Source: Escherichia coli
GTDB lineage: Bacteria; Pseudomonadota; Gammaproteobacteria; Enterobacterales; Enterobacteriaceae
Reading direction: 5' to 3' (one strand)
Length of the DNA stretch: 64,000 nt
Assembly: GCF_044324875.1 (NCBI RefSeq)
Contig: NZ_CP172186.1
The translations under genes were made by a program, and so were the position numbers. The notes below the pieces were generated by a model. It was not told the DNA's origin. It saw only the letters and a program-made list of their open reading frames with translations, and did no database searches. Below, piece by piece: positions 6,882 to 58,362 of this stretch (its first letter is position 1; every line of letters begins with the position of its first letter).

Positions 6882-9800
6882 ATGAGTGCACGTGGTATCA
6901 ACAAGGTCATCCTCGTCGGGGTGCGCCGTTGAAGCGCGGTGTTTTATGGAGTGTTGCCTGAAAAGCAACATGGCTTAGTGGTATAGCCATTGCATACTGT
7001 GGTTAGCCTTGCTTGGTAACAGGCTCGGAGATCCTGAAAAGGAGAGGTGAACATAGCATCCACAGAAAAGGGTGGTGAATATGGAAATCGTTATAAGTAT
7101 CACCATTCAATGCAAGATGTATATGGATAAACTGGGTTTGTTGAAGTCGAGATCTATGTGGGAAACAGGAAACCAATAACGCAGAACGATTGAAGCGTTA
7201 TTCCCGTACTAGCACAAGAAATCCGTCCGACGTTGATTGTGACCACTCTAACGGGCCAGCTATTGATGAAATAGTTAAACGATCGAAAGACATCCTAAGT
7301 ACATCGCATCTCCACACCGTGAAACTACGGGACTACCTAAACTGGATTTATACCCAGCATGGTAGCGGAGTCTCCATAGTACTCAAGGTCGGCCTGTAAT
7401 GGGTTCCGGCAGTCCGCATTATACGGAAGCAGCAAAGGTATAAATCAACCGGAAGGAAGATGAAAGCCTCACAGTGCTGCGGGGAAGGGAGACAGTTGTT
7501 AGATACATCAATCTCTAAGAGGAGGGTTAGCCAATGCTGCCTGATGAACTTGAGAAAAGATTAGATGGAATTGAGGATGCTTCAAAAAAAGGGTATCCAG
7601 TACGTAATCTATACAAAATTGCGTGTGAGCCCGGACTGTGGCTGCAAGCCTACGTGAATATACGGGCCAATGCAGGTGCACTGACTCAAGGTGTATCAAC
7701 AGATACCATTGATGGCTTTTCTATCGAAAGAGCAGAGAAGCTGGCAAAAACATTGCGGAGTAGAGAATACGTAGCGAAACCTGTACGCAGAGTTCAGATC
7801 CCAAAAAAGGACGGAAAAACCAGACCGCTGGGGATTCCAGGTGGAGACGATAAACTGGCGCAAGAAGTAGCAAGAATTATTCTGGAAAGGGTTTATGAAC
7901 CAGTATTCTCTGAACACTCTCATGGATTCAGACCAAAACGTTCGTGTGAAACTGCGCTCAGATCTATTCGTCCAGTCTGGAACGGAGTTAAATGGATCGT
8001 GGATGTTGATATCAAAGGTTTCTTTGACAATATCCCCCACAAACTATTGCTGAATACACTGGCAGAGAAAATTAAGGATAAGAATTTCCTGAAATTAATC
8101 GAACAGTGGCTGAAGGCAGGATATGTGGACAATTGGAAATACCATCGCTCATATTCTGGCACGCCACAAGGTGGGATAATTTCTCCCTTACTGGCAAATA
8201 TATACCTCGACAAACTGGACCGTTTTGTAGAACAGAATTTAATTCCTGCATATACAAGCGGTACAAAACGAAGAGCGAATCCAGATATGAACAGGCTGGC
8301 CCATAAGATTCATAAACTACGAAAGAAAGTAGACGGTATGGCAACTGATTCTGAATCAGAAAAAGAAGCCATAAAGAAAGAAATTGAACGACTGCTTGAA
8401 GAAAAACGTTCTATACCATCTCAGGTCATGAACGATCCAAACTTCAGGCGTATGTACTATGTTCGATATGCTGATGACTTCGTAATCGGTGTCATCGGCT
8501 CGAAGAAAGATGCTGAACATATATCAAGACAGGTCAGAAACTTTATTACTACTTCACTGGGATTGGAAGTTAATGAAGCAAAGACCAGGATCCGCCATAT
8601 CTCAGAAGGAGTTAATTTTTTAGGCTATGAAATCAGACAGGCAGATGCAAAGAAATTGCTGAAGCAGAAAATGCAAGGGCGGCACGCTCTCCGGAGATCC
8701 ACCACAGGAATTGTGCAGCTCTTCGTTCCTGACAATATAGCCGCTAAATTTTGTCACCAAAAGAAATATGGCTGTTATGAGAATGTGAAGGCTGTACATC
8801 GTTCAAGTCTACAAAATCTCAGTGAAGCTGAAATTGTTCTGACTTTCAACGCGGAAATGCGCGGATTGGCGAACTACTACAGTCTGGCGCTGGACATGAA
8901 ATATAAATTATCAAAATTATATTTCATATGGCAAATAAGCCTTTTTAAGACCCTGGCGAATAAACGACGTAGTTCAGTGAATAAAGTCGCCAAATCGCTA
9001 CGGCAAAATAATGGAGATCTGGCTATTACCGTTCAGGCCAAAAATGGATCCCGAAAGATTGAGGTTTTCAAACTCAAACATGTCAATCGCAACCGAACAA
9101 CGATTGTCGATACGGAACCGAGAACCGCACATATCACAACCCGCACAACAGAGATCATGCGTCGATTAGGGGCAAGGATCTGCGAGTATTGTGCGAAGAC
9201 TGGGCGCTGCGAAGTACATCATGTCAGAAAGCTAAAAGACCTGAAGAAAGGTCGTAAGGCCGGATATAAACCCAGCTTGTGGCAACTAATGATGATCGCA
9301 CGCCGCCGGAAAACGATGATTTTGTGCGCAAGTTGCCACGACAAGTTACATAGCGGAAAACTACCCGATTTGAGACAGGAAAAGGGAAGAATACTCCTGC
9401 AACCACCTGTCTCAAGCGGGGATTCTGCTAAATGAGTTTATCCCCAATAAGCTAGCAATGGAGAGCCGTATGCACTGAAAGGTGCACGTACGGTTCGGAG
9501 GGGGGGTAACGGTGATCTAACTCAAGATAAGCAGGACATATTCGCCATTTATCTTGAAAGACCACACGTACCCTACCCTACCGTCTGGGCAATGATCCGG
9601 AAGTCTGTTACATCCCCAACGGGGGCGCAGTGGCAAACCTGCAGGTCGCCACGTCAGAAAGCTGGCGCGACAAACAGACGGGGGAGATGCGGGAGCAGAC
9701 GGAATGGCACCGCGTGGTGCTGTTCGGCAAGCTCGCGGAAGTGGCTGGTGAATATCTGCGCAAGGGCGCGCAGGTCTACATCGAGGGGCAACTCCGTACC

Positions 9801-26854: not shown

Positions 26855-28144
26855 TGAACCGCCCCGGAAATCCTGGAGACTAAACTTCCTGAGAAAGATG
26901 TAAACAGGATGACTAAAAATACTCGTTTTTCCCCCGAAGTCCGTCAACGGGCAGTTCGTATGGTTCTGGAAAGCCAGGGCGAATATGACTCACAATGGGC
27001 GGCAATTTGTTCCATTGCTCCAAAGATTGGCTGTACGCCAGAGACCCTGCGTGTCTGGGTTCGCCAGCATGAGCGGGATACCGGGGGCGGTGATGGTGGG
27101 CTCACCACCGCTGAACGTCAGCGTCTGAAAGAGCTGGAACGCGAAAATCGTGAACTGCGCCGCAGTAACGATATCCTTCGCCAGGCTTCCGCTTATTTTG
27201 CGAAGGCGGAGTTCGACCGCCTCTGGAAAAAATAATGCCACTGCTGGATAAGCTGCGTGAGCTGCAGTGAGCTGCATATTGCCCCGTCAACGTATTACCA
27301 CTGTCAGCAACAGCAGCATCATCCTGATAAACGCAGCGCCCGTGCGCAGCGTGATGACTGGCTGAAGAAAGAGATACAGCGCGTATACGATGAAAATCAC
27401 CAGGTGTACGGTGTGCGTAAAGTCTGGCGTCAGTTGTTACGGGAAGGTATCAGAGTGGCCAGATGCACTGTGACACGTCTTATGGCGGTTATGGGTTTTG
27501 CCGGTGTTCTCCGGGGTAAAAAGGTCCGCATTACCGTCAGCCGGAAAGCCGTTGCCGCAGGCGACCGCGTAAACCGTCATTTCGTGGCAGAACGTCCTGA
27601 CCAGCTGTGGGTGGCTGATTTTACTTACGTCAGCACATGGCAGGGCTTTGTTTATGTGGCGTTCATCATTGATGTGTTTGCCGGATACATCGTGGGATGG
27701 CGGGTCTCCTCGTCCATGGAAACGACATTCGTGCTGGATGCACTGGAGCAGGCGTTGTGGGCCCGTCGTCCGTCTGGCACCATCCATCACAGCGATAAAG
27801 GCTCTCAGTATGTATCGCTGGCCTACACGCAGCGGCTTAAGGAAGTCGGATTACTGGCATCAACAGGGAGCACAGGCGACTCGTATGACAACGCGATGGC
27901 GGAGAGCATCAATGGTCTTTACAAGGCGGAGGTAATACACCGTAAGAGCTGGAAAAACCGGACAGAAGTGGAGCTGGCTACACTCACGTGGGTGGACTGG
28001 TATAACAATCGACGATTGCTGGAAAGGCTGGGCCATACTCCCCCGGCAGAAGCAGAAAAAGCTTATTATGCTTCCATCGGAAACAATGATCTGGCAGCCT
28101 GAGTTCACAGACAAAACATTCTCCAGGAAACCCGGGGCGGTTCA
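26855..28144 (+). mobile_element. IS629/IS1203-like IS3-family element, copy A (small internal deletion, frameshifted orfB)
   Basis: Ends TGAACCGCCCCGG...CCCGGGGCGGTTCA; orfA 26909..27235, orfB remnant 27257..28102; ~20 bp missing at orfA/orfB junction relative to copy C. Confidence 0.85.
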
Positions 28145-31981: not shown

Positions 31982-33163
31982 TGAACCGCCCCGGGTTTCC
32001 TGGAGAGTGTTTTATCTGTGAACTCAGGCTGCCAGATCATCGTTTCCGATGGAAGCATAATAAGCTTTTTCTGCTTCTGCCGGTGGGATATGGCCCAGCC
32101 TTTCCAGCAATCGTCGATTGTTATACCAGTCCACCCACGTGAGTGTGGCCAGCTCCACTTCTGTCCGGTTTTTCCAGCTCTTACGGTGTATTACCTCCGC
32201 TTTGTAAAGGCCATTGATGCTCTCCGCCATCGCGTTGTCATACGAGTCACCAGTACTTCCTGTTGATGCCAGTAATCCGGCTTCCTTAAGCCGCTGTGTG
32301 TAGGCCAGCGATACATACTGAGAACCTTTATCACTGTGATGGACTGTGCCGGACGGTCGACGGGCCCATAACGCCTGCTCCAGAGCATCCAGCACGAATG
32401 TCGTTTCCATAGACGATGAGACCCGCCACCCCACGATGTATCCGGCAAACACATCAATGATGAACGCCACATAGACGACCCCCTGCCATGTGCTGACGTA
32501 AGTAAAATCAGCCACCCACAACTGGTCAGGACGTTCTGCCACAAACTGACGGTTTACGCGGTCGCCTGCGGCAACGGCTTTCCGGCTGACGGTAGTGCGG
32601 ACCTTTTTACCCCGGAGAACACCGGCAAGTCCCATAACCGCCATGAGGCGCGCCACTGTACATCTGGCTACCCTGATTCCTTCCCGTAACAACTGACGCC
32701 AGACTTTACGCACACCGTATACCTGATGATTCCCATCGTATACGCGCAGTATCTCTTTCTTCAGCCAGTCATCGCGCTGCGCACGGGCACTGCGTTTATA
32801 AGGATGATGTCGCTGTTGCTGACAGTGGTAATACGTTGACGGGGCAATATGTAGTTCACTGCATACCGGTCCGACCCCGTACAGCTTACGCAGCTTATCC
32901 AGCAGTGGCATCACTTTTTCCAGAGGCGGTCGAACTCCGCCTTCGCAAAATAAGCGGAAGCCTGGCGAAGGATATCGTTACTGCGGCGCAGTTCACGATT
33001 TTCACGTTCCAGCTCTTTCAGACGCTGACGTTCAGCGGTGGTGAGCCCGCCATCACCGCCTCCGGTATCCCGCTCATGCTGGCGTACCCAGACACGCAGG
33101 GTCTCTGGCGTACAGCCAATCTTTGGAGCAATGGAACAAATTGCCGCCCACTGTGAGTCATAT
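31982..33163 (-). mobile_element. IS629/IS1203-like element, copy B, 5'-truncated
   Basis: orfB 32024..32914 intact; orfA loses its first ~30 codons at the junction with the IS66-family element. Confidence 0.8.
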
Positions 33164-40982: not shown

Positions 40983-41438
40983 GGGGATTCCTCCATAGAT
41001 GAATGGATAAATTTCGGGATTAAGTCGGGTGGCATGAATGCGAATCAGCGCCGGTAATAACCGGACAGGAATGAATTCAACAGGACATTTTTACAGAGAA
41101 GAGCGAACGGCAGAAGGTGGTGGGAGACAGGTACAAAAAAACCGACTGGTGAGGCCGGTTTTTTTGCGATTCCGGGGTGGAGTTGGTGGCTCTGACCGGA
41201 GGAAGTCTCTTTTCAGCTAACAATGAGAGAGCTGTTGTGACAGGCAATGTAAGAGTAAGCAGCAGTGATTTCCTCCATTGACGGAGAAACGGATGATTAA
41301 CCTGTTAATCATCGTTCTCAGGGCGGTTGTTGCTGTGGCTAACGCAGTGATAGCTCTCCGGGAACTGGTTGACTGATAATCCCGGAAACGTACTTAAGGG
41401 CAGAGGGTCACCTCCTTCTGCCCTTTAACAAAATATGC

Positions 41439-41615: not shown

Positions 41616-41785
41616 TTTTACACCTTTCTGTTATTCTGCTTATTACGACCAGCAGACAGCAAATATTAAAAATAACGCGGCGGTAATGCGTATTCCGCTC
41701 TATTCGATCACGGATTGGCATCGAAGTCCGATCAGCGATTCGCATCCATTCGATCAACCGGGAACTTAACTTTTTCTACCGCTTT

Positions 41786-42541
41786 TTAACGCGTTTTTTC
41801 GCTGCTTTCCACTACCGGGGGATTTTTCCTCAGTGACTCTCCCTGAAGGACCACTCGGTGTGAGTTATGTACCAGTCTGTCCAGGATGGCATCTGCTGTT
41901 GTTGGGTTCTCCATCAGACCATGCCATTTATCTACCGGGAACTGGCTTACCACTATCGTGCTGCTTTGTCCGTAACGATCCTCTATGAGCTCCAGAAGGT
42001 CATTACACTGGGCGTTACTTAACTGTTCCAGCCCCAGATCGTCCAGGATTAGAACCTGTATTTTTTGCAACTGTTTCAGATATTTCAGCCAGCTGCCATC
42101 AACACGTCCCTGAGCCAGTTGTTCCAGTAATCGCCCGGTTCTACAGTACCGGACGCTGTGTTTCTGTCGACATGCCTGTTCGCCCAGCGCATTGGCTATC
42201 CAGCTCTTGCCACATCCTGTCGGACCGGTTATCAGCAGGTTTTTCCTGTGGGTTATGTAGTGGCCGTTCAGCAGTTCTCTCATCTGTTCAGCCCGCAGAC
42301 CTCTTGAGGCCGGATAGCGCAGCCCTTCCGGTGTTGCCTGGTATTTCAGGCCGGCATTTTTTCTCAACCGTGCCACACGGCTGTTTTCCCTGCTCAGAAG
42401 CTCGTCATCAACCAGCAGCGTCAGCCTTTCCTCGAACGACAGTTCGTCGTAGGTCTGAGGCGTTTCCCGCTGCCGTATCAGGCTCCCGGCCATCGCCGGG
42501 AGTTTCAGTTGGGTCAGTTTGTTTAACAGGTTATCACTCAT
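41786..42541 (-). CDS. istB: IS21-family IstB (copy 2)
   Basis: Protein identical to copy 1 IstB. Confidence 0.9.
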   Translation of the reverse strand: MSDNLLNKLTQLKLPAMAGSLIRQRETPQTYDELSFEERLTLLVDDELLSRENSRVARLRKNAGLKYQATPEGLRYPASRGLRAEQMRELLNGHYITHRKNLLITGPTGCGKSWIANALGEQACRQKHSVRYCRTGRLLEQLAQGRVDGSWLKYLKQLQKIQVLILDDLGLEQLSNAQCNDLLELIEDRYGQSSTIVVSQFPVDKWHGLMENPTTADAILDRLVHNSHRVVLQGESLRKNPPVVESSEKTR

Positions 42542-42557
42542 ACTGTTGTTCCTTCTG

Positions 42558-44123
42558 TCAGTGGTAGTAGCCCGGACCACGCAGGTTTTCATGCTCTGAA
42601 GCATATGCCGGATGTTGTTCGCCCTGGCGGGATAATGGAAGCTCCAGGTTCTCCCGATGGTGACGCAGCAGATTGTCGATAAAGCGTCTGTCAGGGGCGT
42701 TATAGTGCAGGGCAACGTAACAGGCCTTTTCCAGCCGTTCCGGGCCGTATTTTTTCTGAAGTGCCAGCAGCCCCAGAACTGCACGATAAGCCAGTTCCGG
42801 ATGGGGTTTTGCCTTCAGCATGGATTCAACCACCCGGCCTGTGGACGGGCCCGTACGTTTTCCCTGCTCGATCAGGCGTTCCGGTGTCCATGTCCCGTGC
42901 TGCCGGTGGCGCTCTGGCATGTGAAGCGGATTGGTTGTGTGTTTATATTCATGTGTGCTGCGCGGATGTTGCGCCACACACTGCCCCTTGTGCCAGAGCT
43001 GTACCACCGACTGCCCCGCCTTCAGTGACAGACGCTGACCGACCAGTTCGTGTGGAACGGAGTACCAGTGACGGGCATATTCAACGTGGTAGTCAGGGCC
43101 AACCTTCACAGCTTTGTATTCCGTGTATTCATAAGGTGCCAGAGGCAGCGGAGAGAGTGCTGGCGCATCCAGTATGCGGAAGCGTTCTGCACGGGTTTGA
43201 TTGCCGTACCCCTTCATTGGCCGGTTATTCATGTCTGTCAGTAACTCCCTAAGGCGCGCATTCAGCGCCCTGAGCGTGTGGAAGGTTTCATTACGGATGC
43301 GGGCAAGAAGCCATCGTTCAACGATGAGGACGCCGTTTTCTGCTTTTGGTTTATCTTTAGGTTTGCGTGGTCGGGCCGGGATGATAACCGTGCCATAGTG
43401 CTCAGCCAGTGCCTGATAACTGTCGTTGATGACAGGCTCATATCGATCGGCCTTTTTCACTGCGCTTCTGAGGTTATCGGGGATGAGCAGCTTCGGTACG
43501 CCGCCCAGGAAGGTCAGGCAACGGCTGTGGGCATTTAACCATGACATCATGTCCTGACCTTCGCACGCTTCAACGTAGGTATAGTTGGACGCCCCCATTA
43601 CGGCCACGAAGATTGCCACGCGGCGTATCTCACCGGTGTCCGGATTAATAACAGGAACCGTAGGACCACAGAAGTCGATAAAAAGCTTTTCGCCGGCACG
43701 ATGCTCCTGGCGCATGGAGAGACGTCGCGTTTTTTTCCACTCCCGGTAGCAACGGCAGAAGTGCGAGTATCCCATCGCTTTGTTACCCGCCTGTGCCTTG
43801 TATTCCATCCACAACAGTTGCCGCGTCACACCTGGTTTTCTCATTTCCGTATCGAAGTACAACATGTCAGGCATTACAAGCTCTGATGCAAAGGTGTCTT
43901 TGGGCGGAAAAATGAGTTTCTCCAGCGTGTCATGGGATATATCAGCAGGTAATGGCCATGACAGAGAAGAGGCTTTGAAGCGGGCAAGAACCTCAAAAAC
44001 GGTTGAGGCGCTGATGTGTAACGTCAGTCCGATACAACGGTTAGTCAGCTTCTTGTCGAACTTGAGCTGAAGGATCTTAAAACAGGTTTCCATAGTGCTC
44101 CTGGATTTTCTCTTTCTGGACAT
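42558..44123 (-). CDS. istA: IS21-family IstA (copy 2)
   Basis: Protein identical to copy 1 IstA. Confidence 0.85.
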   Translation of the reverse strand: MSRKRKSRSTMETCFKILQLKFDKKLTNRCIGLTLHISASTVFEVLARFKASSLSWPLPADISHDTLEKLIFPPKDTFASELVMPDMLYFDTEMRKPGVTRQLLWMEYKAQAGNKAMGYSHFCRCYREWKKTRRLSMRQEHRAGEKLFIDFCGPTVPVINPDTGEIRRVAIFVAVMGASNYTYVEACEGQDMMSWLNAHSRCLTFLGGVPKLLIPDNLRSAVKKADRYEPVINDSYQALAEHYGTVIIPARPRKPKDKPKAENGVLIVERWLLARIRNETFHTLRALNARLRELLTDMNNRPMKGYGNQTRAERFRILDAPALSPLPLAPYEYTEYKAVKVGPDYHVEYARHWYSVPHELVGQRLSLKAGQSVVQLWHKGQCVAQHPRSTHEYKHTTNPLHMPERHRQHGTWTPERLIEQGKRTGPSTGRVVESMLKAKPHPELAYRAVLGLLALQKKYGPERLEKACYVALHYNAPDRRFIDNLLRHHRENLELPLSRQGEQHPAYASEHENLRGPGYYH

Positions 44124-44408
44124 TGACGTCTCCACTGGTTTAAACACGGCAATGGAGACTGTGGTGAAAAGAGTTAATTCCCGGAGTGACTGGCAGGATG
44201 CCAATCAATGATCGGAAGCATGCCAAATCGTGATCGATTGTGATGCCAAACTGTGATCGGAGATGGATGCCAAATCATGATCGATTCGAATGCCAAACTG
44301 CGATCGATTCAGATGCCATTTTGCAGGTAAAAATGGCAATTTTTTTCATGCTGTATTTTTGCCATTTATTTTCTTTGAAATGGTTTTTTTCTTCATATCA
44401 GCAAATAA

Positions 44409-46647: not shown

Positions 46648-46991
46648 CGGTGGGGTACAAACGCAGAAATTTTGTTGTCATTACATCATCAGTTTTAGCC
46701 TGCAGAGACGCTGAAAAATCAGCGTTTTCAGACCCTGTTCAGGTTAGTGAATATTCTTGCCTGGCCTTTCGGCAATATCAATCCCCTGATGTGTGCACAC
46801 GTAGTCACTTTCCGGCTTTATTTCTGTCCCTGACACAAAATACGTGGTGGCATGAAAAGGATTGTGGCGGACAGGAAAACGATTAGAATAGCGGCGGGCG
46901 CTTGAGGCTGTATGCCGAAAGCGTTTTGTGGACGGCATGTAGCAGAAAGCCCCAGGCGATTTTTTTATCAATCAACCCAGGGCCCACTGTA

Positions 46992-47195
46992 ATGCCTAGA
47001 CAACATTATAGTAGCCCGATGACGGCCGAAAGGCAATGGAGGGGCTGCGATGCCACAACGAACGTTTTTAATGATGTTAATCGTCGTCTGTGTGACGATA
47101 CTGTGTTTTGTCTGGATGGTGAGGGATTCGCTTTGCGGATTTCGTATCGAGCAGGGAAATACGGTGCTTGTGGCAACGTTAGCCTACGAAGTTAA
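46992..47195 (+). CDS. pndC: possible PndC (mok-like overlapping reading frame); start uncertain
   Basis: Alternate frame overlapping almost all of pndA, as in hok/mok-type loci. Confidence 0.35.
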   Translation: MPRQHYSSPMTAERQWRGCDATTNVFNDVNRRLCDDTVFCLDGEGFALRISYRAGKYGACGNVSLRS

Positions 47196-47202
47196 ACGTT
47201 AA
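47050..47202 (+). CDS. pndA: Hok/Gef-family post-segregational killing toxin PndA
   Basis: 50 aa MPQRTFLMMLIVVCVTILCFVWMVRDSLCGFRIEQGNTVLVATLAYEVKR; below ORF-track cutoff, read directly. Confidence 0.8.
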   Translation: MPQRTFLMMLIVVCVTILCFVWMVRDSLCGFRIEQGNTVLVATLAYEVKR

Positions 47203-47339
47203 CGGGCAACACGGCGGTAGAGAATCTGCCGCCGGATTGTTGCGAAGGCTGACCTCAATGCGCCTTGTTTGTCTTTTTTACCGGACGACTGCTGGTTGCT
47301 GCTGTCCGGCAGCTATTATTTTTTCCGTCCTGTGCGTCA

Positions 47340-47555
47340 TCAATTATGACAGTCGCTCTCATTTAGTTGTCTCTGGTTAGATGTATTATTATATATTTTC
47401 GGGGTAATTCGATAAAAGTTATCCACTTCAGCACCAGACTGAATGATATATGCAATAAGATCTAAACGATGAATCTCGTATCGTGTACGTAACTCCATTA
47501 TTTCACGCCATGGAGTACCATGTCGTGCTGGAAAATTGCTGCGGGATTCAGACAT
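47340..47555 (-). CDS. hypothetical small protein in AT-rich spacer
   Basis: 71-aa ORF only. Confidence 0.25.
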   Translation of the reverse strand: MSESRSNFPARHGTPWREIMELRTRYEIHRLDLIAYIIQSGAEVDNFYRITPKIYNNTSNQRQLNESDCHN

Positions 47556-57148: not shown

Positions 57149-57475
57149 ATGACTAAAAATACTCGTTTTTCCCCCGAAGTCCGTCAGAGGGCGATTCGTA
57201 TGGTTCTGGAAAGTCAGGGCGAATATGACTCACAGTGGGCGGCAATTTGTTCCATTGCCCCAAAGATTGGCTGTACACCGGAGACTCTGCGTGTCTGGGT
57301 ACGCCAGCATGAGCGGGATACCGGAGGCGGTGATGGCGGGCTCACCACCGCTGAACGTCAGCGTCTGAAAGAGCTGGAACGTGAAAATCGTGAACTGCGC
57401 CGCAGTAACGATATCCTTCGCCAGGCTTCCGCTTATTTTGCGAAGGCGGAGTTCGACCGCCTCTGGAAAAAGTGA
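57149..57475 (+). CDS. IS629 OrfA
   Basis: 108 aa [41 protein letters not shown]... Confidence 0.9.
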
Positions 57476-58362
57476 TGCCACTGCTGGATAAGCTGCGTAA
57501 GCTGTACGGGGTCGGACCGGTATGCAGTGAACTACATATTGCCCCGTCAACGTATTACCACTGTCAGCAACAGCGACATCATCCTGATAAACGCAGTGCC
57601 CGTGCGCAGCGCGATGACTGGCTGAAGAAAGAGATACTGCGCGTATACGATGGGAATCATCAGGTATACGGTGTGCGTAAAGTCTGGCGTCAGTTGTTAC
57701 GGGAAGGAATCAGGGTAGCCAGATGTACAGTGGCGCGCCTCATGGCGGTTATGGGACTTGCCGGTGTTCTCCGGGGTAAAAAGGTCCGCACTACCGTCAG
57801 CCGGAAAGCCGTTGCCGCAGGCGACCGCGTAAACCGTCAGTTTGTGGCAGAACGTCCTGACCAGTTGTGGGTGGCTGATTTTACTTACGTCAGCACATGG
57901 CAGGGGGTCGTCTATGTGGCGTTCATCATTGATGTGTTTGCCGGATACATCGTGGGGTGGCGGGTCTCATCGTCTATGGAAACGACATTCGTGCTGGATG
58001 CTCTGGAGCAGGCGTTATGGGCCCGTCGACCGTCCGGCACAGTCCATCACAGTGATAAAGGTTCTCAGTATGTATCGCTGGCCTACACACAGCGGCTTAA
58101 GGAAGCCGGATTACTGGCATCAACAGGAAGTACTGGTGACTCGTATGACAACGCGATGGCGGAGAGCATCAATGGCCTTTACAAAGCGGAGGTAATACAC
58201 CGTAAGAGCTGGAAAAACCGGACAGAAGTGGAGCTGGCCACACTCACGTGGGTGGACTGGTATAACAATCGACGATTGCTGGAAAGGCTGGGCCATATCC
58301 CACCGGCAGAAGCAGAAAAAGCTTATTATGCTTCCATCGGAAACGATGATCTGGCAGCCTGA
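57472..58362 (+). CDS. IS629 OrfB (DDE transposase)
   Basis: 296 aa; ...[13 protein letters not shown]...[10 protein letters not shown]...[15 protein letters not shown]... Confidence 0.9.

What the first reader, a model, noticed from the sequence alone, without database searches (positions are those of the whole stretch)
46900..47202. hok-type killer gene pndA invisible to the ORF track
A 50-aa peptide MPQRTFLMMLIVVCVTILCFVWMVRDSLCGFRIEQGNTVLVATLAYEVKR is a clear Hok/Gef-family toxin. The 97-aa alternate-frame ORF at 46902..47195 is the expected mok-like overlapping frame (pndC). The antisense RNA should lie over its 5' region, but I could not place it confidently.
Basis: partly seen in the sequence, partly recalled or inferred. 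Interest (0 to 1): 0.3.

Follow-up and report, generated by a model that had tools for sequence, protein, structure and literature searches.

The report
Known pnd plasmid-addiction killer locus
This is an intact copy of the long-known pnd "kill the cell that loses the plasmid" module of I-complex conjugative plasmids (toxin PndA, helper frame pndC, antisense RNA PndB), so it is real but ordinary.

Summary
ORF 47050..47202 (+) encodes exactly the quoted 50-aa peptide. It matches Pfam Hok/Gef (E 1.3e-12) and is nucleotide-for-nucleotide the pndA gene of plasmid R16 (UniRef name PNDA1_ECOLX).

The window is an IncK2/Z-like I-complex plasmid. The locus sits in the usual place, between the trbA/nuc side and excA.

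All sequence-level parts of a hok/sok-type type I toxin-antitoxin module are present:
- a full-length Rfam RF01794 leader (125.6 bits);
- a 5'-3' fold-back (tac 46896-46907 with fbi 47253-47265) that appears in the minimum-energy fold and covaries in distant relatives;
- alternative pairing of the pndC ribosome site with ucb or dcb;
- a conserved minus-strand promoter (TTGCCT, 17 nt, TACTAT) that should drive a ~63-nt hairpin RNA (about 47002 to 46940) covering the pndC start.

Two corrections. First, pndC is most likely the 67-codon frame from ATG 46992. Second, the Rfam "sok" hit lies on the toxin strand and models the mRNA leader, not the antisense gene.

Novelty: already known. Killing activity and RNA ends are inferred, not shown.

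The parts
46862..46889 (+). Presumed pnd mRNA promoter: -35 TTGTGG (46862-46867), 16-nt spacer, -10 TAGAAT (46884-46889)
   Evidence: Read from the sequence. The -10 lies 6 nt upstream of the Rfam-defined 5' end, and TAGAAT is kept in all intact pnd variants aligned. The block conserved with IncI1-type plasmids begins at about 46855, just upstream. The consensus promoter scan did not flag it because the -35 is weak. Inferred.
46896..47283 (+). pnd mRNA (pndC-pndA transcript). The 5' end is at about 46896. The 3' end is not determined: either the T-rich run after fbi (47266-47283) or the terminator-like hairpin 47293-47315 with its T run to 47325
   Evidence: Rfam RF01794 model position 1 aligns to 46896. 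The block conserved with other pnd alleles ends at 47264 plus a T-rich run. A terminator-like hairpin lies at 47293-47315.
46896..46907 (+). tac element (5'-terminal GGGCGCTTGAGG)
   Evidence: It pairs with 47254-47265 in the MFE of every full-length construct tested. When fbi is absent it pairs with ucb (Rfam consensus helix).
46946..46953 (+). ucb / anti-SD box (AAAGCCCC)
   Evidence: In the full-length fold, GCCC 46949-46952 pairs with GGGC 46980-46983, the pndC SD. In the 5' fragment and the fbi-less RNA it pairs with tac instead.
46979..46983 (+). Shine-Dalgarno-like AGGGC of pndC
   Evidence: It lies 8 nt upstream of ATG 46992 and aligns to the GaGGC of the Rfam consensus, which is the R1 mok SD position described in PMC9841398.
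46992..47195 (+). pndC (mok-like) reading frame, 67 codons, overlapping pndA in another frame
   Evidence: ATG 46992 to TAA 47193-47195. The 67-codon frame is kept in all 6 pnd loci compared, while the upstream extension is frame-shifted in 2 of them. Several database records name 67-aa members of the same 90% cluster 'PndC'.
46986..47012 (+). Antisense-target hairpin: stem ACUGUAAUG/CAUUAUAGU, loop CCUAGACAA. The pndC AUG sits at the top of the stem
   Evidence: Rfam consensus helix and the local fold. It is complementary to the unpaired 5' tail of the antisense candidate.
47014..47017 (+). dcb (GCCC), which pairs with the pndC SD in the open form
   Evidence: Fold of the first 125 nt and the Rfam consensus outer helix.
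47008..47036 (-). Antisense (pndB) promoter: -35 TTGCCT (47036-47031), 17-nt spacer, -10 TACTAT (47013-47008). A perfect TATAAT overlaps it at 47010-47005
   Evidence: Read from the sequence. The TTGnnn / 17 nt / TAnnnT arrangement is conserved at the same place in pnd, srnB-like, IncHI2 and Vibrio loci. It was not flagged by the consensus scan (8 of 12 matches).
46940..47002 (-). Predicted PndB antisense RNA, about 63 nt (ends uncertain by a few nt): a 13-nt unpaired 5' tail, a long hairpin and a CUUUCU tail
   Evidence: The fold is -24.9 kcal/mol, z -3.2, against -14.1 for the plus strand of the same interval, because 5 G-U pairs exist only on the minus strand. Four distant relatives show a promoter-then-long-hairpin-then-U-rich-tail layout; in two of them the MFE pairs much of the 5' tail. 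The 63-nt length is inferred from the percentages given in PMC3562002.
47038..47044 (+). Shine-Dalgarno GGAGGGG of pndA
   Evidence: Read from the sequence. It is invariant in the pnd alignment.
47050..47202 (+). pndA toxin gene (50 aa, Hok/Gef family)
   Evidence: It is 153/153 nt identical to the R16 pndA CDS listed in the supplement of bioRxiv 10.1101/2025.08.07.668861. UniRef names the exact protein PNDA1_ECOLX.
47206..47242 (+). Conserved 3'-UTR hairpin, the likely 3' end-protecting stem-loop of the processed mRNA
   Evidence: Present in all local folds of pnd 3' UTRs. A U-G to C-G change in the stem keeps the pairing. The role is inferred by analogy with the last stem-loop of truncated hok mRNA (PMC9841398).
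47253..47265 (+). fbi element (CCTCAATGCGCCT), complementary to the mRNA 5' end
   Evidence: MFE pairing 46896-46906 with 47254-47265, with one bulged U. Duplex energy is -20.3 kcal/mol, and compensatory changes occur in the srnB-like and Vibrio loci.

Best explanation
Window 46855-47325 is an intact pnd post-segregational-killing cassette of the R16 (IncB/O/K/Z) type, a hok/sok-family type I toxin-antitoxin system on an I-complex conjugative plasmid.

Proposed working, by analogy with R1 hok/sok and R483 pnd:
1. A stable mRNA starts at about 46896 and is made in a closed form. Its 5' end (tac) pairs with fbi near the 3' end, and ucb masks the pndC ribosome site. The RNA is therefore neither translated nor bound by antisense.
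2. Slow 3' trimming removes fbi. Tac then captures ucb, the pndC ribosome site is freed, and the target hairpin is exposed.
3. While the plasmid is present, the short-lived ~63-nt antisense RNA PndB (minus strand, about 47002 to 46940) binds the target loop and the pndC start. This blocks pndC translation and, through translational coupling, pndA. The duplex is cut by RNase III.
4. In a cell that has lost the plasmid, PndB decays first. The stored mRNA is then translated, and the 50-aa membrane toxin PndA kills the cell.

Shown here: gene identity, all sequence elements, the predicted alternative folds and their conservation. Inferred from the literature: transcription, processing, RNase III cleavage, coupling and killing.
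For: - Toxin: exact ORF; Pfam HOK_GEF 47.5 bits, E 1.3e-12; 153/153 nt identity to R16 pndA; UniRef name PNDA1_ECOLX.
- Context: the best-matching plasmids are IncK2/Z or IncI1/B/O conjugative plasmids, with the locus between the trbA/nuc side and excA.
- Leader: full-length RF01794 hit, 125.6 bits against a gathering score of 59. The same model hits pnd, srnB-like, IncHI2 and Vibrio loci.
- Fold-back: tac and fbi pair in the MFE of three full-length constructs. ucb masks the SD in that fold, and removing fbi switches tac to ucb.
- Covariation: the 4th tac/fbi pair is C:G in pnd, U:A in the srnB-like locus and A:U in the Vibrio locus.
- Antisense: a conserved promoter and hairpin on the minus strand.
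- Literature: the hok/sok mechanism and its elements (PMC9841398; PMC4147584); pnd acts as a killing/addiction system on IncI plasmids (PMC7602700; PMC5330492).
Against: - There is no expression or activity evidence for this copy.
- Both promoters are weak matches to consensus and were not reported by the promoter scan.
- The RNA ends are placed by homology and structure only.
- The mRNA 3' end is ambiguous. The T-rich run directly after fbi has no strong local hairpin, while the terminator-like hairpin at 47293-47315 is not conserved in other pnd alleles.
- NCBIfam's HokA equivalog and Hok subfamily models score below their cut-offs (66.7 against 89; 41.5 against 73). The assignment therefore rests on Pfam plus identity to R16 PndA.
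- The MFE of the fbi-less RNA shows the tac/ucb switch only partly.
Confidence: 0.92

Rival explanations
1. The locus is a decayed or silent remnant that keeps the sequence but no longer kills. Many chromosomal hok copies are reported as unable to mediate killing.
For: Both flanks carry deletions relative to close relatives: 266 bp upstream and 1,371 bp downstream. A partial cassette that lacks the 5' leader does exist elsewhere (pCFSAN076166, no Rfam hit). The preprint text notes that chromosomal hok loci did not mediate killing.
Against: The upstream deletion ends 106 nt before the mRNA start and 72 nt before the -35. The downstream one starts about 190 nt after the terminator-like hairpin. 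The CDS is identical to R16 pndA. Every regulatory element is intact and identical or near-identical in more than 100 plasmids. The preprint authors obtained no clones, or only mutated ones, for the R16 PndA CDS, a result they took as a sign of toxicity for another homolog (cluster 39).
Confidence: 0.05
2. The 97-aa ORF 46902..47195 is itself the translated pndC protein, starting at TTG 46902.
For: The ORF is open. Members of the 97-aa ORF's 90% cluster are deposited in databases under the name PndC or 'plasmid stability protein'.
Against: The TTG is 6 nt from the mRNA 5' end, inside the tac helix, with no room for a ribosome site. In L003 (IncI1 type) and L006 a 1-nt indel puts the upstream 30 codons in a different frame, while the ATG-initiated 67 codons stay intact. 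The antisense RNA and the SD-like AGGGC bracket ATG 46992, as in mok of R1.
Confidence: 0.04
3. The antitoxin RNA is the plus-strand interval 46896..47052, which Rfam labels 'sok antitoxin'.
For: The RF01794 hit is reported on the plus strand under the name 'sok antitoxin (CssrC)'.
Against: The model's last three consensus positions are the toxin's AUG (47050-47052), and position 1 is the tac 5' end. It therefore describes the toxin mRNA leader. No minus-strand match appears even at E up to 10. A same-strand RNA could not act as an antisense. The conserved promoter and the more stable hairpin lie on the minus strand.
Confidence: 0.02

Closest known systems
pnd (pndA/pndB/pndC) of plasmid R16 (IncB/O)
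   Same: The pndA CDS is identical at all 153 nt and all 50 aa to the R16 entry in the supplement of bioRxiv 10.1101/2025.08.07.668861. UniRef names the protein PNDA1_ECOLX. The plasmid backbone is of the same I-complex type.
   Different: No difference was detected in the toxin. I had no R16 sequence for the non-coding parts. Relative to most B/O/K/Z-type copies, the window carries AG instead of CA/CG in the target loop (46998-46999) and lacks 266 bp upstream.
pnd of R483 / R64 (IncI1), the experimentally dissected pnd system
   Same: Same gene order, same position in the transfer region and the same tac, ucb, SD, target hairpin, antisense promoter and fbi. Identity is about 90% over window 46855-47264. 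The first 17 nt of the predicted PndB are identical.
   Different: The toxin differs at 4 of 50 residues and 10 of 153 nt. In the PndB hairpin there are 5 substitutions plus a 1-nt indel, and that indel shifts the frame upstream of the pndC ATG. The sequence downstream of fbi is unrelated.
hok/sok/mok of plasmid R1 (the paradigm), and srnB/srnC and flm of F
   Same: Same architecture and presumably the same mechanism. The RF01794 leader, the tac/fbi end pairing, the ucb/SD/dcb switch, the overlapping leader frame and the antisense promoter sit at the same places.
   Different: Toxin identity to the srnB-like protein on an IncF plasmid is only about 48%. The leader sequences diverge, with compensatory changes. 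R1 itself was not fetched, so the comparison with R1 rests on the literature and on my memory of its sequence.

Membership tests
Hok/Gef toxin family (Pfam PF01848) | A small protein that matches the family HMM above its curated cut-off | tested here: met
   47.5 bits against a cut-off of 22, E 1.3e-12, covering profile positions 3-42 of 42.
Hok/Gef toxin family, NCBIfam HokA equivalog (NF007290) and Hok subfamily (NF007279) | Score above NCBI's curated cut-off | tested here: not met
   66.7 bits against 89, and 41.5 against 73. It should therefore not be called HokA. It is a PndA-type member.
pnd locus of I-complex plasmids | Toxin identical or near-identical to a characterised PndA | tested here: met
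   100% nt and aa identity to R16 PndA and 92% aa identity to R483 PndA. UniRef name PNDA1_ECOLX.
pnd locus of I-complex plasmids | Location in the IncI-type transfer region, between the trbA/nuc side and excA | tested here: met
   Annotated neighbours in the 100%-identical pLH50-c-A and in pB-9427-1. The window is collinear with them.
pnd locus of I-complex plasmids | An overlapping pndC (mok-like) frame that starts upstream of pndA and ends inside it | tested here: met
   A 67-codon frame, ATG 46992 to TAA 47195, conserved in 6 of 6 loci.
hok/sok-type type I TA regulation | Conserved structured mRNA leader | tested here: met
   RF01794 matched end to end (positions 1-157 of 157), 125.6 bits, E 3e-28.
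hok/sok-type type I TA regulation | 5'-3' end pairing (tac/fbi) that closes the full-length mRNA | tested here: met
   Present in the MFE of three full-length constructs. Duplex energy -20.3 kcal/mol, with covariation in two distant relatives. This is a prediction, not structure probing.
hok/sok-type type I TA regulation | Alternative pairing of the leader-frame SD (ucb in the closed form, dcb in the open form) | tested here: met
   ucb 46949-46952 pairs with SD 46980-46983 in the full-length fold. SD pairs with dcb 47014-47017, and tac with ucb, in the 5' fragment. The full fbi-less RNA shows the switch only partly in its MFE.
hok/sok-type type I TA regulation | A cis-encoded antisense RNA with its own promoter, a single-stranded 5' tail and a hairpin, covering the leader-frame start | tested here: met
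   At sequence level only: a conserved -35 / 17 nt / -10 arrangement; fold with a 13-nt tail and hairpin, z -3.2; strand asymmetry of -24.9 against -14.1 kcal/mol, and a long hairpin with U-rich tail in four relatives (5' tail partly paired in two).
hok/sok-type type I TA regulation | Actual transcription of both RNAs, 3' processing, RNase III cleavage of the duplex, and post-segregational killing | not testable with these tools
   Known for R1 hok and R483 pnd from the literature. Not measured for this copy.

The most novel reading that the evidence does not exclude
The 2-nt polymorphism in the antisense-recognition loop could tune which PndB recognises which pnd mRNA. The window and IncI1 type carry CCUAGACAA; other B/O/K/Z-type copies carry CCUCAACAA or CAUCGACAA. 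The change alters nt 4-6 of the PndB 5' tail. If it affects recognition, related I-complex plasmids would carry partly orthogonal addiction modules, and this plasmid would combine an R16-type toxin with an IncI1-type recognition tail. Separately, the only termination-like signal shared by all pnd alleles is a T-rich run directly after fbi. That run would make the long-range tac/fbi helix itself part of the terminator.
Probability: 0.1. Interest if true: 0.35.

Novelty: already known. Interest (0 to 1): 0.08.

Why it matters
The practical value is annotation. The cassette is easy to miss because the toxin is only 50 aa and the antitoxin is an RNA. Standard records label only a "Hok/Gef family protein" and omit pndB and pndC, or give pndC with an unconserved 97-aa start. 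The Rfam "sok" hit reports the wrong strand for the antitoxin.

Knowing that this resistance- or virulence-type conjugative plasmid carries an intact pnd module bears on plasmid persistence. It also bears on plasmid-curing strategies that supply PndB in trans (PMC5330492). It does not open a new biological question.

Tried and rejected
- The generic sigma-70 scan found neither the pnd nor the pndB promoter, because both fall below its 9-of-12 threshold. The promoters were instead placed by position and cross-family conservation.
- A permissive Rfam scan of both strands gave no minus-strand family hit, so no curated model directly supports the antisense RNA.
- R64 (AP005147) is not in the plasmid collection. 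An IncI-gamma/K1 plasmid whose PndA is identical to that of R483 stood in for the IncI1 allele.
- The supplement of PMC3562002, which might have given the published pndB target sequence, is not held. The 63-nt length is back-calculated from its percentages.
- My automatic toxin-ORF finder picked a wrong ORF in the IncHI2 locus L010, so that row was ignored for tac/fbi.
- From memory I first assigned a different sequence to R16 PndA. The preprint supplement showed this was wrong.
- No large protein or structure searches were run. The identity was settled without them.

Full report

Yes. At a 20-aa threshold, the ORF listing shows an ATG-initiated ORF at 47050..47202 (+). It also shows a TTG-initiated 97-aa ORF at 46902..47195 in another frame of the same strand.

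The 50-aa protein matches Pfam PF01848 (Hok/Gef) at 47.5 bits, E 1.3e-12, against a cut-off of 22. NCBIfam's HokA equivalog and Hok subfamily models match but stay below their curated cut-offs. "Hok family, not HokA" is therefore the right level of naming.

A whole-window Rfam scan gives one end-to-end hit of RF01794 at 46896..47052, at 125.6 bits and E 3e-28. tblastn with three Hok-family proteins finds no second copy in the window.

**2. Whose gene is it?**

Megablast of 46700-47400 finds about 1,900 plasmid records, almost all conjugative plasmids of Escherichia, Salmonella and Shigella. The ORF is annotated there as "Hok/Gef family protein".

The 100% matches are IncK2/Z plasmids such as pLH50-c-A. 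In these and in IncI1/B/O plasmids, the locus lies between the trbA/nuclease side and excA of the IncI-type transfer region.

An exact-sequence look-up shows that UniRef names this protein "Protein PndA, PNDA1_ECOLX". The IncI1-type variant is PNDA2_ECOLX.

The supplement of bioRxiv 10.1101/2025.08.07.668861 lists the CDS of "PndA_R16" and "PndA_R483". The window's CDS is 153/153 nt identical to the R16 entry. It differs from the R483 entry at 10 nt and 4 residues.

So this is the R16-type pnd allele, one of the ten Hok homologues that the preprint lists as experimentally studied. It is not the R64/R483 allele.

**3. The pndC frame**

There are three reasons:
- TTG 46902 is only 6 nt from the mRNA 5' end and lies inside the tac helix.
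- An in-frame ATG at 46992 is preceded by AGGGC (46979-46983). That motif aligns with the GaGGC of the Rfam consensus, which is the mok SD position in R1.
- In the IncI1-type locus L003 and in pO104_H21 (L006), a 1-nt indel upstream of that ATG throws the 30-codon extension into a different frame. The 67 codons from the ATG are preserved in all six loci compared.

**4. Fold-back elements**

I folded 46896..47264, 46896..47283 and 46896..47325. Each gives a minimum-energy structure in which 46896/7-46906 pairs with 47254-47265, which is the tac/fbi pairing. In the same fold, GCCC 46949-46952 (ucb) pairs with GGGC 46980-46983, the pndC ribosome site.

Folding only the 5' 58-125 nt reproduces the Rfam consensus:
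- tac pairs with ucb (46947-46953);
- the ribosome site pairs with GCCC 47014-47017 (dcb);
- the hairpin 46986-47012 presents the loop CCUAGACAA.

The full RNA lacking fbi shows the switch only partly in its MFE.

The tac/fbi complementarity is conserved with compensating changes. The srnB-like locus has GGGUGUUUG/CAGACACCC and a Vibrio plasmid locus has GGAGCUU/AAGCUCC. The fourth pair is therefore C:G, U:A or A:U in the three lineages.

This is the two-state switch described for R1 hok (PMC9841398). From my own knowledge, unverified here, it was also described for R483 pnd by Nielsen and Gerdes (1995), a paper cited in PMC7602700.

A conserved hairpin at 47206-47242 lies between the stop codon and fbi. 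By analogy with hok, it is the likely protective 3' end of the processed, active mRNA. That role is inferred.

**5. Placing the antisense RNA**

The Rfam family is called "sok antitoxin", but the hit is on the toxin strand. Its last three consensus positions are the toxin's AUG. A permissive scan finds nothing on the other strand. The model therefore describes the mRNA leader.

On the minus strand I read TTGCCT (47036-47031), a 17-nt spacer and TACTAT (47013-47008). A perfect TATAAT overlaps 3 nt downstream.

I aligned the minus strands of four pnd alleles, an srnB-like locus, an IncHI2 hok locus and a Vibrio locus. All show the same TTGnnn / 17 nt / GGCTAnnnT arrangement, followed downstream by a hairpin ending in GGGG(C/U)UUU.

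Starting about 6-7 nt after the -10 gives a 63-nt RNA (47002 to 46940). It has a 13-nt unpaired 5' tail, a long hairpin and a CUUUCU tail. Its fold energy is -24.9 kcal/mol with z -3.2.

The same interval on the plus strand folds to only -14.1 kcal/mol, because five pairs are G-U on the minus strand. This fits selection for structure on the antisense transcript. A long hairpin followed by a U-rich tail recurs in the four distant relatives, though in two of them the MFE pairs much of the 5' tail.

The tail is complementary to the target loop and the pndC AUG. The 63-nt length agrees with the figures in PMC3562002, where 87.3% and 14.3% correspond to 55/63 and 9/63. That correspondence is my inference.

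Neither promoter reaches the threshold of the generic scan. The RNA ends are predictions, uncertain by a few nucleotides.

**6. Extent and integrity**

Against IncI1-type plasmids, the homology block is window 46855-47264 at about 90% identity. That runs from just upstream of the -35 to the end of fbi, followed in every allele by a T-rich run.

The terminator-like hairpin at 47293-47315 is specific to this allele group, so the true 3' end is undecided.

Relative to pB-9427-1, the window lacks 266 bp upstream (junction 46789/46790). This removes most of an 80-aa hypothetical ORF. It also lacks 1,371 bp downstream, an in-frame loss inside a TnsA-N-domain gene. Neither deletion touches the cassette.

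**7. Mechanism and verdict**

The best explanation is a functional hok/sok-type post-segregational killing module, as set out in the Best explanation section.

The literature supports killing or addiction by pnd on IncI plasmids (PMC7602700; PMC5330492). It also supports antisense control through the leader frame, with RNase III cleavage, for hok, srnB and pndA (PMC4147584).

None of this was measured for this copy. The rivals (a silent remnant, a real 97-aa PndC, a plus-strand antitoxin) are each contradicted by the data above.

The finding is correct and useful for annotation, but the system is already known. Interest is low.

Noticed in passing
window 46783-46798 (junction 46789/46790): A 266-bp deletion relative to most related plasmids. 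It removes most of an 80-aa hypothetical ORF that lies just upstream of pnd on the minus strand (L002 6045-6287). Only two plasmid records share this junction at 100% identity.
   Followed up: partly
window 47340-47555 (-): A 71-codon ORF that is the in-frame remnant of a ~528-aa TnsA-endonuclease-N-domain gene present downstream of pnd in pB-9427-1. 1,371 bp are missing. The pnd cassette is thus bracketed by two deletions yet is untouched.
   Followed up: partly
window 41687-44325: A ~2.6-kb insertion relative to pLH50-c-A. It carries IstA-like (548 aa, 42558-44204, minus strand) and IstB-like (332 aa, 41786-42784, minus strand) ORFs and several short terminal repeats (ATGCCAAA..GATCG). It looks like an IS21-family element; the family assignment rests on ORF layout and was not checked by an HMM.
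   Followed up: partly
window 41133-41376: A probable second type I toxin-antitoxin locus. An Rfam AgrB (RF02891) hit lies at 41133-41220 (minus strand, 51.8 bits). Next to it is a 32-aa ORF at 41278-41376 (+), at the position annotated 'DinQ-like type I toxin DqlB' in related plasmids.
   Followed up: partly
window 46998-46999: A polymorphism in the antisense-target loop. The window and the IncI1-type allele have AG (CCUAGACAA), while other B/O/K/Z-type alleles have CA or CG. It changes nt 4-6 of the predicted PndB 5' tail and pndC codon 3 (R or Q).
   Followed up: partly
window 27190-27276 (+), 32840-32956 (-), 57430-57546 (+): Three Rfam ALIL pseudoknot hits, which mark IS3-family transposase frameshift sites. 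The last two have identical scores and displayed sequence and lie in inverted orientation, which suggests two copies of the same IS.
   Followed up: no
window 9461-9581 (+): An Rfam group II intron catalytic-domain hit (67.4 bits), which suggests a group II intron on this plasmid.
   Followed up: no
L007 (pCFSAN076166) 340-900: A pnd copy with a 52-aa toxin variant (a 2-codon insertion). Its sequence upstream of the antisense region is replaced, so there is no tac and no RF01794 hit. It sits directly downstream of an MqsA-type type II antitoxin gene and is probably a truncated or rewired cassette.
   Followed up: no
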